Origin: a virus
Taxonomy: Duplodnaviria; Heunggongvirae; Uroviricota; Caudoviricetes
DNA length: 12,539 nucleotides
IMG/VR virus record: IMGVR_UViG_2529293139_000012
Direction: 5' to 3' (one strand)
Shown here: one piece after another, positions 1,598-12,539 of the stretch
Layout of the letters: the number at the start of each line of letters is the position of its first letter
Numbering within the stretch: the first letter of the stretch is position 1
Notes under the pieces: generated by a model
What the model saw: only the letters and a program-made list of their open reading frames with translations
Database searches by the model: none
What the model was told of the DNA's origin: nothing
Translations under genes and position numbers: made by a program

Positions 1598-1673
1598 GGC
1601 CCTTTAGCTCAGTGGTTAGAGCAGGCGACTCATAATCGCTTGGTCGTTGGTTCAAACCCAACAGGGGCCACCA
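1598..1673 (+). tRNA. tRNA with CAU anticodon, most similar to enterobacterial tRNA-Ile2 (lysidine-CAU, ileX/ileY-like); elongator tRNA-Met not excluded
   Basis: 76 nt, GGCCCTTTAGCTCAGTGGTTAGAGCAGGCGACTCATAATCGCTTGGTCGTTGGTTCAAACCCAACAGGGGCCACCA. Acceptor stem GGCCCTT/AGGGGCC pairs, anticodon loop CT-CAT-AA, T-loop TTCAAAC, encoded CCA. D-arm and anticodon arm match E. coli tRNA-Ile2 as I recall it; T-arm differs. Confidence 0.9.
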
Positions 1674-3137: not shown

Positions 3138-3220
3138 ATGAAAATGCAAAAACTAGCTTTTTCCGCGCCGTTCCCGCCCCGTGGCAGGCCACCTCACCGG
3201 GAGGACCCACCCAAAAAAGG
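3138..3220. repeat. Copy 1 of a GC-rich ~75-80 bp conserved non-coding element, upstream of the small terminase operon
   Basis: Near-identical to 6487-6560 (ATGAAAATGCAAAAAC.AGC.TTTTTCCGCGCCGTTCCCGCCCCGTGGCAGG.CAC..CACCGGGAGGACCCA). The plus-strand ORFs over the two copies share nucleotides but diverge in frame after about 5 codons, so the conservation is not protein-coding. Confidence 0.75.
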
Positions 3221-6486: not shown

Positions 6487-6560
6487 ATGAAAATGCAAAA
6501 ACCAGCCTTTTTCCGCGCCGTTCCCGCCCCGTGGCAGGTCACTACACCGGGAGGACCCAT
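6487..6560. repeat. Copy 2 of the GC-rich conserved non-coding element, upstream of the capsid operon
   Basis: Aligns with 3138-3220 over about 75 nt with a handful of substitutions and a 1 nt indel. Confidence 0.75.
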
Positions 6561-9732: not shown

Positions 9733-9915
9733 ATGCAAGAAGAAAATGTGAAACCAAAATTTGATCGCTCCGGCAGCACAAAGAAAAACATCCGCTTCGA
9801 AGACACATTGTTGCAACAAATTAACGAAGTTGCTGGGCCTGGTAATTTCAGCTCATGGGTAAAAAATGCTTGTCGTGATAAGCTACGCAAAGAAGGCATA
9901 GAACCCAAAGGCTGA
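9733..9915 (+). CDS. Small putative regulatory/DNA-binding protein (60 aa), possibly YlcI/YnfO (DUF3950)-like
   Basis: The only plus-strand gene in the island; followed by a plus-strand terminator and preceded by the operator pair. 'NIRFEDTLLQQINEVAGPGNFSSWVKNACRDKL' resembles the DUF3950 pattern as recalled (low certainty). Weak ribosome binding site. Confidence 0.45.
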   Translation: MQEENVKPKFDRSGSTKKNIRFEDTLLQQINEVAGPGNFSSWVKNACRDKLRKEGIEPKG

Positions 9916-10009: not shown

Positions 10010-10038
10010 GGCGACCGCCCCCGGTCGCCTTTGTTTTA
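10010..10038 (+). terminator. Rho-independent terminator for the plus-strand small gene
   Basis: GGCGACCG-cccc-CGGTCGCC hairpin followed by TTTGTTTTA. Confidence 0.6.
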
Positions 10039-10055
10039 TGTGCCATCACTCCCCC

Positions 10056-10265
10056 TTACACCGTCTGCGTTCTGCGAGTGGATGCAAGATAAGCATCGAG
10101 ATCAGTGCGCATATACAGCACTTTGCGACCAAGCTTATGGAAAGGGATTTTTACCTTGCCAGTACACGCCCAGTTCGCCAGTGTTTGATTGTTAACGCCA
10201 AGGTAGGCAGCAGCTTCAGCACGTGTAAGGCGGTCAGTTGATAAATCAGATTTCTTTAAATTCAT
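10056..10265 (-). CDS. AlpA/excisionase-family HTH DNA-binding protein (about 69 aa)
   Basis: Start taken at ATG 10263-10265 (MNLKKSDL); the ORF-track form starts 3 codons earlier at a GTG. HTH 'LTRAEAAAYLGVNNQTLANWACTGKVKIPFHKLGRKVLYMRTDLDAYL' has the Xis/AlpA architecture. Confidence 0.6.
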   Translation of the reverse strand: MNLKKSDLSTDRLTRAEAAAYLGVNNQTLANWACTGKVKIPFHKLGRKVLYMRTDLDAYLASTRRTQTV

Positions 10266-10407
10266 ATCTATCACCGTGTACGTCTAAGTAACAACGGTGA
10301 TAAATATCAATCAATGAGTATTTTGTTTTTAGCCCAATAGCCAGTTGCTGTGGGGCTGTTACCAGTTATTTAGCCTCAATAGCCAGCTATTAAAATACCG
10401 TAGCCAG

Positions 10408-11133
10408 CTATTGGGGGTGAACAAGCTCAAACGAAGAGTATTTATCAGGCTTTGGTGGTTGTGCCCCTGATTCTTTAATCCATCTATCTAGCGTGTTTTT
10501 ACTTACTTTCCCATGGTAGTAAACAGAAAGCTCGTTCAATAAACCTGTTTTACTGGCTTTAGGGTACTTTTCCCATGTTAGTTTAATTACGTGCATAACT
10601 TCATTGTAATAATGATTTCTTGGTTTGCGCGCTTTTTCTTTCTGTGATAAGGATAAAGCATCCTTTATTTTTTTATCTTTTTCATGGTTCGATATAATTT
10701 CTTCAAAAAAATCATTAAGCAATAACTCAACACCAACTCTAGTAAGTTTGTCTGCGTGATTACGCATTCCGACATGGTACAATGCAACTGCTGAATTTAA
10801 AGTATCGACAACCTGACAAGATAGTTTACTATCAAATATTAAAAAACCACACGAATCAATTTTTGCAGCTAATTCAATAGGATATTGCTCGATTTCACTT
10901 GATTCTAAACCATAACACAAAAGAAATTCTCTTGTTGGATATTTTGATTTATAAAAATAATCTCTTATATCATCAATCAAGCGTTTTATAGCCTCTATGG
11001 TGGAGTTTCTCGGGGATAAAGATACAGGAACGTTTAAAACTGAAGATTCTCGCCCACCAGTAATTAAATCATTCATAACCGAATAAATAATATATTGTTT
11101 GACCGATATATTGTTATCATCCATATATGTCAT
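10408..11133 (-). CDS. AT-rich hypothetical protein (241 aa), candidate accessory/cargo gene
   Basis: ORF overlapping the integrase 3' end by 17 nt. Visibly much more AT-rich than the island genes on either side, with Lys/Asn/Ile/Tyr-rich codon usage. No recognisable catalytic motif; the C-terminus (KNTLDRWIKESG) may be HTH-like. Confidence 0.55.
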   Translation of the reverse strand: MTYMDDNNISVKQYIIYSVMNDLITGGRESSVLNVPVSLSPRNSTIEAIKRLIDDIRDYFYKSKYPTREFLLCYGLESSEIEQYPIELAAKIDSCGFLIFDSKLSCQVVDTLNSAVALYHVGMRNHADKLTRVGVELLLNDFFEEIISNHEKDKKIKDALSLSQKEKARKPRNHYYNEVMHVIKLTWEKYPKASKTGLLNELSVYYHGKVSKNTLDRWIKESGAQPPKPDKYSSFELVHPQ

Positions 11134-12539
11134 TCTTTTCTTGTACTATAGCAAATAGTAAACGACGTTTTTCATCATCACTCATGCCCTCCAGTGCGGA
11201 AAGCAATTGCGCATCGATAGATTTTTTACTCTCCACCAGCCCGGCATGTTCCTGAATTGCCCGTTCTATCCGTGACGCTGGCTCCAGCAATTCATCAGCA
11301 CCAAAATGTAAATACCCCTGCGTTACGTCAGCACTTCGCATAGTACGGTGATTCATCAGGCGCTTGAGGATGTAATTGCCCACGCCCACCAGTTCGGCAA
11401 CCGTTCCGAACGTCCGGCGCGCATCGTGCCATTTGAATGGTACAGGGGAGAGCATTTCATCGTTCGACTCTGAAACGGTAGCCGCGCTTATCCGGTCTAT
11501 GATGTGCCGTGTCTCCTGAATAACGCCCTTCACACCAGGAAACACCAGCACATCATCAGCAGCTTTGTTTTTTAGCCTGCGAAGAAACATTTTCCGCAAC
11601 GTATCAGTGATCGGCAGTTCAAGCGGATCCCCGTTTTTCGTGGTGTCTATCCAGAAAAAAACGACCGCCCATATTCACGCGATCCCACGTAAGGCCAAAA
11701 ATTTCTGATTTCCTCAGTCCGGTAAAAAGCGCCATTTCCACGGCATCGCATACCGTCACCGCTATATCATCCCTTTCCTGTTCGCCCTGGTCGCGCACAG
11801 CAGCTACAGCAGCAAACCAGCGGGGAAAATCATGCAGGCGGATACGTTCCGTTTTTCTTACCGTTCCGTGCCACTGGCGCTTGGTGCTCAGTACCAGAGT
11901 CGGCGGATCCGGTAAAAGAGTATTACCCGCATCATCACGGTAATGATCATGCGCAAACCGACACACAGCACGTAGCGCACGCGCCCATAAATCGGCCTGT
12001 GCCTTGCTTCCTGTACCAACCCCAGCCCGTAACGTGGTTTTATCAGCACCGAACCATACAGCCCCATCAGTGATGGCCTTATGCCGTTGTTCCACCCGTT
12101 CGCGGGAAATACTGGCGAGGGTATGGGCCATCCAGTCACCGGAATAATTCTGTAATATGCTGCGGTACTGTTTTTCTGTGGCGGGTTTCAGGCGGTGGCC
12201 ACGATTTTTTACGTAGGCGTCAATCGCCTCACTCAGCGTTATCATGGCCTTGTTGTTAGTGCGCTTTGCTATGTTCGGATTTATCCCCGTTGTGGCGACT
12301 TCGCCAAGGAGTTCCATAGCTTTAGCCCTGGCATTATCCACGCTCAGATCAGGAAAACGCCCCAGCGTTGCACGAATAAATTTTCCGTTACGCTTACGGG
12401 AAATGCAGAAACTTTTCACACCAGACGAACCTACACGGACACGCAGCCCGTTAACCTCCGTATCACCATATTCGACCTGTCCATGTTCCGGCGTTGGCAG
12501 TTCTGCAATTTTTACTTTAGAGAATCTGAATAATTTCAC
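11117..12539 (-). pseudogene. Tyrosine site-specific integrase (P4-like family), interrupted by a frameshift in an A7 run at 11655-11661; N-terminus runs off the window
   Basis: The 306-aa upstream frame carries the first Arg box (TGLRKSEIFGLTWDRV); the 160-aa downstream frame carries HDARRTF and the catalytic Tyr region (RSADVTQGY). Removing one base from the homopolymer joins them as ...GRFFWIDTTKNGDPLELPITDTLRKMFLRRLK.... Confidence 0.85.

What the first reader, a model, noticed from the sequence alone, without database searches (positions are those of the whole stretch)
10269..10412. Repeat-rich leader of the AlpA-type gene
Three AATAGCCAG(C/T)T direct repeats (about 10336, 10377, 10400) and a 9 bp inverted repeat TATCACCGT/ACGGTGATA (10269-10302) overlapping the gene's start lie between the cargo gene and the AlpA-type gene. 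These suggest autoregulation or integrase/excisionase binding.
Basis: seen in the sequence. Interest (0 to 1): 0.4.

Follow-up and report, generated by a model that had tools for sequence, protein, structure and literature searches.

The report
Phased operator array and leader hairpin
The stretch in front of the AlpA-type master-regulator gene of this E. coli phage-satellite-like island holds four evenly spaced palindromic sites, probably bound by a so far unnamed protein encoded just upstream, plus an RNA hairpin that hides the gene's ribosome-binding site; it is a candidate for the switch that keeps such islands silent.

Summary
All genes here are on the minus strand. The 142-nt leader holds four sites, not three. 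Each is a palindrome (AATAGC-TG-GCTATT type), and their centres are exactly 21 bp apart. The inverted repeat extends to 18-nt arms and folds as an RNA hairpin over the Shine-Dalgarno sequence and the AUG of the AlpA-type gene.

The upstream "cargo" gene is not cargo. This gene (X) belongs to an unannotated family of 145 clusters, with a variable N-terminus and a conserved helix-turn-helix-like C-terminus. X lies directly upstream in 134 of 145 related loci.

Across 46 divergent leader types the repeats keep a 20-21 bp phase but change sequence. The changes track the X C-terminal domain. They do not track the integrase (100% identical over the N-terminal ~300 residues, yet different sites) or AlpA (same helix-turn-helix and wing, yet different sites). 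The hairpin shows compensatory and wobble changes in 65 distinct leaders.

Best reading: an operator array for X controls the alpA promoter, and a hairpin that sequesters the ribosome-binding site adds a second layer. Binding by X and the sign of regulation are inferred, not shown. This is a new variant of a known kind, of moderate to high interest.

The parts
10399..10417 (-). Site 1 of the array. Minus-strand reading: CCCCCAATAGCTGGCTACG. The core TAGCTGGCTA is at 10401-10410. The site overlaps the TAG stop codon (10408-10410) and the last codons of gene X.
   Evidence: the same position is kept in relatives
10378..10391 (-). Site 2, the best palindrome of the four: AATAGC-TG-GCTATT.
   Evidence: information-content peak in the 18-leader profile
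10357..10370 (-). Site 3, degenerate (AATAACTGGTAACA).
   Evidence: relatives L007/L008 read AATAGCTGGTAA at the same place
10336..10349 (-). Site 4 (AGCAACTGGCTATT, followed by GGGC), nearest to alpA.
10312..10335 (-). Conserved A/T-rich box (GGGCTAAAAACAAAATAC...) between site 4 and the hairpin. This is the likely promoter region of alpA. No consensus sigma-70 promoter is called here. The best weak candidate pairs a -35-like CTAAAA/CTGATA with a -10-like GATATT inside the 5' arm of the hairpin.
   Evidence: none called; conservation; 25 of 49 leader types have their best candidate 35-44 nt upstream of the ATG
10260..10311 (-). Leader hairpin. The 5' arm is 10311-10294, the 16-nt loop 10293-10278, and the 3' arm 10277-10260. 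The 3' arm contains the Shine-Dalgarno sequence GGTGA and the ATG at 10265-10263.
   Evidence: (-22.7 kcal/mol, z -5.97)
10056..10265 (-). AlpA-type gene: 69 aa, HTH_17 / excisionase-family DNA-binding protein.
   Evidence: PF12728, E 1.2e-11; TIGR01764
10408..11133 (-). Gene X: 241 aa (RefSeq starts it at 11124, giving 238 aa). It belongs to an unannotated family with a variable N-terminal domain, a long helix and a conserved C-terminal three-helix domain (…KVSKNTLDRWIKESG…). Its start overlaps the 3' end of the integrase gene.
11117..12538 (-). P4-type tyrosine integrase gene. It is frameshifted in this window by a 1-nt insertion near 11655 relative to E. coli strain L73.

Best explanation
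The leader is a two-layer control region for the island's AlpA-type master regulator.

Layer 1 is on DNA. Four dyad-symmetric sites, two helical turns (21 bp) apart, run from the stop codon of gene X to the A/T-rich promoter region of alpA. They form an operator array. Its most likely ligand is a dimer of X, whose gene is translationally coupled to int. X would bind through its conserved C-terminal helix-turn-helix-like domain and fill one face of the helix cooperatively. I favour repression of alpA, together with blocking of read-through from int-X, over activation by about 60:40. The hypervariable, freely exchanged N-terminal domain of X is the obvious candidate for a sensor of a helper-phage signal.

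Layer 2 is on RNA. An 18-bp hairpin in the alpA leader pairs the Shine-Dalgarno sequence and the AUG, so transcripts that carry the whole 5' arm are poorly translated. Such transcripts certainly include read-through from int-X.

Shown here: the anatomy, its conservation, the phasing, the co-variation with the X C-domain, the exclusion of Int and AlpA as specificity determinants, and the covariation in the hairpin. Inferred: that X binds, the sign of regulation, the position of the transcription start, and the sensor role.
For: - **Anatomy:** four sites exactly 21 bp apart, each a palindrome.
- **Conservation:** in 18 gap-free 142-nt leaders the information content peaks at the four cores while the spacers drift.
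- **Phasing:** in 46 divergent leader clusters, direct 8-mer repeats pile up at lags 20-21 (27 cluster counts against about 2 expected), 40-42, and 60 and 63.
- **Association with X:** 134 of 145 loci with this AlpA subtype have an X-family gene directly upstream. The X-less relatives L125, L128 and L132 keep the hairpin but show no phased repeat array on reading their upstream 300 nt.
- **Co-variation:** array similarity correlates with the X C-domain (Spearman 0.47; partial 0.46 given AlpA), more than with AlpA (0.17) or with the equally adjacent hairpin DNA (0.28). None of 2107 pairs with an X C-domain below 50% identity share an array. The 4 apparent exceptions among 80 pairs at or above 90% identity belong to the same site class.
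- **Natural domain swaps:** L007 against the window, and L066 against L005, have an X N-terminus at 29-50% identity but the same C-domain and the same sites.
- **X as a DNA binder:** all-alpha model (pLDDT 79.7) with a 46-residue helix and a C-terminal three-helix unit preceded by a basic arm. Weak Pfam HTH_32, HTH_Tnp_Tc3_2 and HTH_28 hits occur in 6, 2 and 2 of 86 members.
- **Hairpin energy:** -22.7 kcal/mol, z -5.97. Every one of 25 variant leaders folds so that the 3' arm covers the SD and runs up to or over the AUG.
- **Hairpin covariation:** on 65 distinct coding-strand leaders, 76% of cells are paired against 27-45% when partners are slid, and 75 cells have a change on both sides against at most 39. 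Swaps seen are TA to GC, AT to TA and GC to AT. The wobbles are 5'-U/3'-G, so they fit only the sense RNA.
Against: - No binding data exist. X has no significant match to any Pfam, PHROG, NCBIfam, PADLOC or PDB entry, and the fold searches are non-significant. Its DNA-binding role therefore rests on weak HTH hints and on context.
- X and the array are physically adjacent, so part of the co-variation could be linkage within one recombination module. That module also includes the first ~25 codons of alpA.
- No good sigma-70 promoter is called in the leader. With the weak candidate, site 4 would be centred near -46, a position used by activators as well as by repressors.
- The covariance-model alignment leans towards the modelled hairpin. 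The MAFFT-based count is weaker: 13 double changes, reached by 4 of 500 shuffles.
- Palindromic repeats also pair with each other in RNA.
Confidence: 0.5

Rival explanations
1. The repeats are binding sites for the AlpA-type protein itself (autoregulation) and/or for integrase and excisionase acting in recombination.
For: AlpA of EcCICFT073 activates its own promoter (PMC6092414). HTH_17/excisionase proteins do bind repeat arrays (own knowledge: lambda Xis, P2 Cox, P4 Vis). The leader and the first ~25 codons of alpA are exchanged together as one module.
Against: - L003 and L005 have the same AlpA helix-turn-helix and wing (97% identity) but unrelated repeats.
- 29 of 124 pairs with at least 90% identical AlpA have unrelated arrays.
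- The integrase is 100% identical over the first ~300 residues between the window and L003, yet the repeats differ.
- The array lies about 2.2 kb from the 5' end of int, where the attachment site sits.
- The sites are palindromes spaced at 21 bp, not head-to-tail repeats at about 10 bp.
- AlpA is conserved across all loci, so its own site should be conserved too. The conserved DNA lies in the hairpin and promoter part, not in the array.
Confidence: 0.1
2. The array is bound by a factor not encoded next to it, for example a helper-phage activator or repressor, so its diversity mirrors the diversity of helpers. X would then have another role.
For: Helper phages switch on alpA transcription in PICIs by an unknown factor (PMC6092414). 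At least eight site classes occur within one host range. The promoter looks weak and activator-dependent.
Against: The array is present where X is present and was not seen in the X-less relatives with the same alpA and hairpin. Array type follows the X C-domain even when the X N-terminus, int and alpA are swapped. A host factor is excluded, because three unrelated site types occur in E. coli islands at the same nfeF locus.
Confidence: 0.15
3. The repeats matter only as RNA structure. Palindromic copies pair with each other in the int-X read-through transcript, acting as an attenuator or stabiliser, with no protein operator involved.
For: Sites 1 and 2 pair into a 13-bp stem in the predicted fold of the whole leader. 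In some relatives site 1 is a 24-nt perfect palindrome whose outer C5/G5 flips to G5/C5 (L014 against L059).
Against: A strict 20-21 bp phase across 46 leader types is a property of the DNA helix, not of RNA folding. All copies within an island share one sequence class, including family-specific half-site flanks at sites that are not partners in the fold. No U-run follows, and no terminator is called.
Confidence: 0.07
4. The array plus the A/T-rich stretch is a replication origin: iterons for the island's primase/helicase, as in the lambda origin or plasmid origins.
For: Four phased, dyad-symmetric repeats followed by an A/T-rich stretch resemble ori-lambda (own knowledge).
Against: The replication gene type changes without any change in site type. 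The window has a D5_N primase and L008/L012 an AAA_25 helicase, with the same sites. L003 has a DUF927 protein and L004 a DNA primase family protein, again with the same sites. The array sits 1.5 kb upstream of the replication gene, at the promoter of alpA.
Confidence: 0.03

Closest known systems
SaPI / Gram-positive PICI master repressor Stl and its operators in the stl-str intergenic region
   Same: A satellite-encoded DNA-binding protein has a conserved DNA-binding part and a highly variable part that meets helper-phage proteins. Several operators sit in front of the gene that starts the excision-replication cycle. The gene lies next to int. (Own knowledge, and the PMC6092414 discussion.)
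   Different: X shows no sequence or fold similarity to Stl. Its helix-turn-helix-like domain is C-terminal. The genes are in tandem (int, X, alpA), not divergent. The target is an activator/excisionase-type gene. Neither binding nor derepression has been shown.
Phage P2 C repressor operator (two direct repeats about 22 bp apart flanking the -10 of Pe) and the Cox/Apl switch of P2/186
   Same: Operator copies lie two helical turns apart on one face of the DNA. An integrase-linked regulator opposes an HTH excisionase-type early gene. (Own knowledge.)
   Different: There are four copies, each dyad-symmetric. The gene order is tandem, the protein family is unrelated, and an extra RNA hairpin layer is present.
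EcCICFT073 / EcCIEDL933 alpA control (Gram-negative PICIs and cf-PICIs)
   Same: The islands share a P4-type int, an AlpA-type HTH_17 gene, a primase and, as in cf-PICIs, a capsid gene. AlpA is the switch that the helper phage turns on.
   Different: In EcCICFT073 alpA appears to follow int directly. This is inferred from the paper's 'ORF3' wording; I could not retrieve the locus. This AlpA allele occurs in only 84 of 5426 complete E. coli genomes and comes with X and the array.
Binding arrays of recombination directionality factors (lambda Xis X1-X1.5-X2, P2 Cox boxes, P4 Vis, TorI)
   Same: Repeated short sites lie near an excisionase-family gene.
   Different: Those arrays are head-to-tail copies about one helical turn apart, in or beside attP, and follow the excisionase. 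Here the copies are palindromes at 21 bp, about 2.2 kb from the att side of int, and do not follow AlpA.
Hairpins that sequester the ribosome-binding site and shield a gene from outside transcription (IS10 'fold-back inhibition')
   Same: The 5' arm is an anti-SD/anti-AUG sequence placed upstream, so long transcripts are translationally silent. A -10-like hexamer sits in the 5' arm, so promoter-proximal transcripts might escape (own knowledge of IS10).
   Different: The transcription start is not mapped. The -10-like hexamer can also be explained as the complement of UAUG. The conserved loop motif TGTTAAC..AATAC has no counterpart.

Membership tests
HTH_17 / excisionase-family (AlpA-type) protein gene downstream of the leader | Match to Pfam PF12728 or TIGR01764 above the curated cut-off | tested here: met
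   PF12728 scores 45.1 bits (cut-off 27). TIGR01764 scores 38.8 bits (cut-off 28.8)..
Excisionase/RDF binding array (Xis, Cox, Vis type) | Head-to-tail direct repeats about one helical turn apart | tested here: not met
   The copies are dyad-symmetric and exactly 21 bp apart.
Excisionase/RDF binding array (Xis, Cox, Vis type) | Site sequence follows the cognate excisionase | tested here: not met
   L003 and L005 have the same AlpA helix-turn-helix and wing but unrelated sites. 29 of 124 pairs with at least 90% identical AlpA have unrelated arrays.
Integrase arm-type sites (attP architecture) | Sites follow the integrase arm-binding domain and lie within attP | tested here: not met
   The first ~300 integrase residues, which include the arm-binding domain, are 100% identical in the window and L003, yet the sites differ. 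The array lies about 2.2 kb from the att side of int.
Repressor/operator array of a temperate element (P2 C, 186 CI, SaPI Stl type) | Several copies of one site, phased by whole helical turns | tested here: met
   Four copies at 21 bp. The 20-21, 40-42 and 60/63 lag peaks appear in 46 leader types.
Repressor/operator array of a temperate element (P2 C, 186 CI, SaPI Stl type) | Sites overlap or abut the promoter of the gene that starts the lytic or excision programme | tested here: inconclusive
   Site 4 abuts a conserved A/T-rich box in front of alpA, but no consensus promoter is called and the transcription start is unknown.
Repressor/operator array of a temperate element (P2 C, 186 CI, SaPI Stl type) | A cognate DNA-binding protein encoded by the element, whose specificity co-varies with the sites | tested here: inconclusive
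   The X C-domain is the only neighbour that co-varies, and the array goes with the presence of X. Linkage is not excluded, and the helix-turn-helix assignment is weak.
Repressor/operator array of a temperate element (P2 C, 186 CI, SaPI Stl type) | Demonstrated binding and repression | not testable with these tools
   Needs EMSA or footprinting and reporter assays.
Leader hairpin that sequesters the ribosome-binding site | SD and start codon lie inside a stable stem of the sense transcript | tested here: met
   -22.7 kcal/mol, z -5.97; the GGUGA and AUG lie in the 3' arm. The same holds in all 25 variant leaders and in most of the 47 further ones.
Leader hairpin that sequesters the ribosome-binding site | Pairing kept by compensatory or wobble changes | tested here: met
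   76% of cells paired against 27-45% when slid. 75 double-change cells against at most 39. TA/GC, AT/TA and GC/AT swaps. 5'-U/3'-G wobbles. Caveat: the alignment was fitted with a covariance model.
Leader hairpin that sequesters the ribosome-binding site | Both arms present in a natural transcript, with an effect on translation | not testable with these tools
   Needs 5'-end mapping and translational fusions.
Iteron-type replication origin | Repeats follow the element's replication initiator | tested here: not met
   The same sites occur with a D5_N primase, an AAA_25 helicase, and DUF927 or primase-family genes.
Known RNA family (Rfam) | Match above the gathering score | tested here: not met
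   Only a tRNA in the window reaches threshold. Leader matches are all chance-level, E of 2 or more.
PICI / cf-PICI-type satellite (the island as a whole) | int, alpA and a primase-replicase in one orientation, with a capsid module for cf-PICIs | tested here: inconclusive
   int, an HTH_17 gene, a D5 primase, a ClpP-capsid fusion and DUF1441 are present. However, tail-gene fragments, an internal stop in the DUF1441 gene (RefSeq note for strain L73) and a frameshifted int indicate a decayed element. Helper dependence is untested.

The most novel reading that the evidence does not exclude
X is the missing master regulator of a family of Gram-negative phage satellites. It would be a modular sensor-repressor. 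Its conserved C-terminal domain occupies a four-operator, helically phased array and silences alpA. Its hypervariable, freely swapped N-terminal domain is the receptor for a helper-phage protein that lifts the block, which would be functionally analogous to SaPI Stl but unrelated in sequence and fold. The leader hairpin would act as a fail-safe that keeps int-X read-through from producing AlpA.
Probability: 0.3. Interest if true: 0.75.

Novelty: new variant of a known kind. Interest (0 to 1): 0.58.

Why it matters
In Gram-negative phage-inducible islands the cycle starts when alpA is switched on. How the gene is kept off, and how the helper phage turns it on, is an acknowledged open question (PMC6092414).

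This leader offers a concrete, testable cis-element set: four phased operators and a hairpin that sequesters the ribosome-binding site. It also offers a concrete candidate trans-factor, an unannotated family of 145 clusters with a swappable N-terminal domain, in a sub-family of such islands found in Escherichia, Salmonella, Klebsiella and Superficieibacter.

The natural diversity, with at least eight site classes each paired with its own X C-domain, is a ready-made specificity-swap experiment. It could also supply orthogonal repressor/operator pairs.

Tried and rejected
- **Identity of X:** the Pfam, PHROGs, NCBIfam, PADLOC and PDB-sequence searches of X all found nothing significant. Foldseek of the full model against PDB and BFVD, and of the C-terminal 80 residues against PDB, gave nothing below E = 0.48. 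Small three-helix DNA-binding domains appear only at chance level.
- **Genome-contig scan with the X alignment:** it returned a single locus. The broad 86-sequence alignment was too diverse for the search for related loci.
- **Rfam:** no family matches the leader.
- **Promoter:** the consensus scan finds no alpA promoter. My own scan gives only a weak, recurrent candidate. Its -10-like hexamer can equally be explained as the complement of UAUG, so I do not claim a transcription start.
- **Intrinsic terminator at site 1:** rejected. No U-run follows, and nothing is called.
- **IHF and LexA boxes:** checked by eye in the hairpin and in the X-less relatives. The spacing does not fit.
- **EcCICFT073:** I looked in CFT073 at 1.39-1.485 Mb to compare its alpA leader. 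The island is not in that stretch.
- **Four apparent exceptions to the X C-domain/array rule:** they are L010-type against L024-type leaders of one site class.

Full report
**Context.** The window is 99.98% identical to a chromosomal island of E. coli strain L73. All island genes lie on the minus strand. In order they are:
- a P4-type tyrosine integrase (11117-12538, frameshifted here);
- a 241-aa gene that I call X (10408-11133), whose start overlaps the end of int;
- a 142-nt leader (10266-10407);
- a 69-aa HTH_17/excisionase-family AlpA-type gene (10056-10265);
- then Icd-like, DUF4222, a D5-type primase, a ClpP-capsid fusion and DUF1441.

This is the layout of a phage satellite of the PICI/cf-PICI/P4-like kind, partly decayed.

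**The observation.** TAGCCAGYT occurs exactly three times, at 10338, 10380 and 10401, and nowhere else in the window. Read on the coding strand, the leader has four sites: AATAGCTGGCTACG, AATAGCTGGCTATT, AATAACTGGTAACA and AGCAACTGGCTATT. Their CTGG cores are exactly 21 bp apart (+ strand CCAG at 10404, 10383, 10362, 10341). Each site is itself a palindrome (TARC-YR-GYTA). The degenerate pattern gives 6 strand-hits, 5 of them here, against 0.65 expected. It extends to 18-nt arms (16 of 18 complementary) that include the start codon.

**The inverted repeat is an RNA hairpin.**
- The sense transcript folds at -22.7 kcal/mol (z -5.97), with GGUGA and AUG in the 3' arm.
- All 25 distinct leader ends first collected fold the same way. 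In most of the 47 further leader types the SD is paired.
- In L003 and L005 the 5' arm has a different sequence and register but still pairs with the SD region. This argues for structure rather than for a conserved palindromic operator.
- On a MAFFT alignment of 22 leaders, 78.6% of cells pair against 27-45% when partners are slid. The covariation score is reached by 1 of 500 shuffles.
- I built a covariance model from that alignment. It finds the element upstream of alpA in 69 coding-strand leaders.
- On 65 distinct rows, pairing is 76% against 27-45% when slid. Swaps seen are TA/GC (46/9), AT/TA (41/10) and GC/AT (43/10). There are 25 U·G wobbles, always with 5'-U and 3'-G, which would be C·A mismatches on the other strand.
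- The model-fitted alignment is biased towards the structure, so I treat this as good but not final support.
- The loop carries a conserved TGTTAAC..AATAC motif of unknown role.
- No Rfam family matches.

**The repeats form a conserved, phased array.**
- Relatives were collected through X homologues and through AlpA. This gave 145 loci with this AlpA subtype.
- The leader length is strikingly constant, 142 nt in most.
- In 18 gap-free leaders, information content peaks at the four cores while the spacers drift.
- In 46 leader clusters that share few 8-mers, direct 8-mer repeats concentrate at lags 20-21, 40-42, and 60 and 63. Each lag has about one count expected by chance.
- The site sequence differs between island types but is shared by the copies within an island. 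Examples are TAGCTGGCTA, TAGCATGCTA, CATAGCGCGTTATG, TTAAGTACTTAA, AATCCAG/ATCTGG and CCCCTGG; at least eight classes exist. This is the signature of sites evolving together with a specific ligand.

**Which ligand?**
- *Integrase is excluded.* Its first ~300 residues are 100% identical in the window and L003, yet the sites are unrelated. The array is also about 2.2 kb from the att side of int.
- *AlpA is excluded as the specificity determinant.* L003 and L005 share the helix-turn-helix and wing (97% identity) but have unrelated sites. 29 of 124 pairs with at least 90% identical AlpA have unrelated arrays.
- *The replication protein is excluded.* D5_N, AAA_25, DUF927 and primase-family genes all occur with one site type.
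- *A host factor is excluded.* Three unrelated site types occur in E. coli islands at the same nfeF locus.
- *X remains.* The 'cargo gene' is present directly upstream in 134 of the 145 loci, and 4 of the remaining 11 are truncated contigs.
- The X-less relatives L125, L128 and L132 keep the hairpin, but reading their upstream 300 nt shows a single different palindrome instead of a phased array.
- Array similarity follows the X C-domain: Spearman 0.47, and partial 0.46 given AlpA. It follows AlpA only weakly (0.17, partial 0.15) and the equally adjacent hairpin DNA less well (0.28).
- No pair with an X C-domain below 50% identity shares an array (0 of 2107). The four apparent exceptions at 90% identity or more belong to one site class.
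- Natural domain swaps keep C-domain and sites together while the N-terminus changes (window/L007 and L005/L066).

**What X is.**
- It has no annotated family.
- A profile search finds 145 clusters at 50% identity. They share the C-terminal ~110-140 residues and differ in the N-terminus.
- The AlphaFold model (pLDDT 79.7) is all-alpha, with a 46-residue helix and a C-terminal three-helix unit preceded by a basic stretch.
- Weak HTH_32, HTH_Tnp_Tc3_2 and HTH_28 hits occur in a few members.
- Fold searches are non-significant.
- DNA binding by X is therefore an inference from sequence pattern and context.

**Mechanism proposed.** X dimers occupy the four sites on one face of the DNA, from the end of their own gene to the alpA promoter region, and set alpA transcription. 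The hairpin keeps any transcript that carries its 5' arm poorly translated; this certainly includes int-X read-through.

The sign of regulation is open. No consensus promoter is called. A weak candidate recurs in 25 of 49 leader types: a -35-like CTAAAA/CTGATA box with a -10-like GATATT in the 5' arm. With that candidate, site 4 would sit near -46. It would also let promoter-proximal transcripts start inside the 5' arm and escape the hairpin, as in IS10 fold-back inhibition. However, the hexamer can equally be explained as the complement of UAUG.

I favour repression (about 60:40). X is co-expressed with int, the only upstream operon, and a quiescent island needs alpA off. In Gram-negative PICIs AlpA is the activator whose expression triggers the cycle, and no repressor is known (PMC6092414; searches found no later description).

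**Comparison and novelty.** Functionally this most resembles a temperate-element immunity region, such as the SaPI Stl operators or the two-turn-spaced operators of P2 C, combined with a leader that sequesters the ribosome-binding site. It is not an excisionase array, an arm-site set or an iteron origin; the defining features of those were tested and not met. The protein family, the tandem int-X-operators-alpA arrangement and the hairpin are, as far as the searchable literature shows, undescribed. I rate it a new variant of a known kind.

**Limits.**
- Linkage between X and the array cannot be fully separated from function with these data.
- This AlpA allele is rare: 84 of 5426 E. coli genomes carry it, and 23 carry this exact leader.
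- The copy in the window has a frameshifted integrase.

Noticed in passing
window 11117-12538 (near 11655): The integrase gene carries a 1-nt insertion relative to the otherwise 99.98% identical locus of E. coli strain L73. This splits it into two ORFs (11619-12539 and 11117-11599). The copy may be immobile, or this may be a sequencing error.
   Followed up: partly
window 3138-3209 and 6487-6559: A 73-nt direct repeat (93% identical) lies in two intergenic or small-ORF stretches of the island, on either side of the capsid gene region. Its function is unknown.
   Followed up: no
window 10278-10293 (hairpin loop); relatives in alignment A8: The 16-nt loop of the leader hairpin carries a motif conserved across very different leaders (TGTTAAC...AATAC; in the window TGTTACTTAGACGTAC). 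Part of it forms an inner mini-stem (UUAA/UUAA or GUAC/GUAC). It may be a second recognition element.
   Followed up: partly
L125, L128, L132 (about 60-90 nt upstream of the hairpin): Relatives that lack gene X keep the alpA hairpin. In place of a phased array they show a single different palindrome (CTGTATAAAGTGTTATACAAG), suggesting a different regulator acting in trans.
   Followed up: partly
window 10040-10187 against 10188-11133: There is a mosaic boundary inside alpA. 61 E. coli genomes match only the 3' two-thirds of alpA (about 95%) and then diverge. So X, the leader and the first ~25 codons of alpA are exchanged as one module between an identical int and an identical alpA 3' end.
   Followed up: partly
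window 10010-10029: A G+C-rich stem followed by a T-run is called as a terminator on the + strand. It lies between the alpA stop codon and the + strand ylcI/ynfO-like ORF (9733-9915), and is probably the terminator of that opposite-strand gene.
   Followed up: no
window 1598-1673: A tRNA gene with anticodon CAT. ARAGORN calls it tRNA-Met; RefSeq annotates tRNA-Ile at the equivalent position in strain L73. It lies at the far end of the island from int, next to decayed tail, terminase-like and amylase-like genes.
   Followed up: no
L005, L010, L014 (gene just downstream of alpA): The variable gene after alpA is often an AntA/AntB or Bro-N antirepressor-type gene. This hints that these islands also act on the helper phage's repressor.
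   Followed up: no
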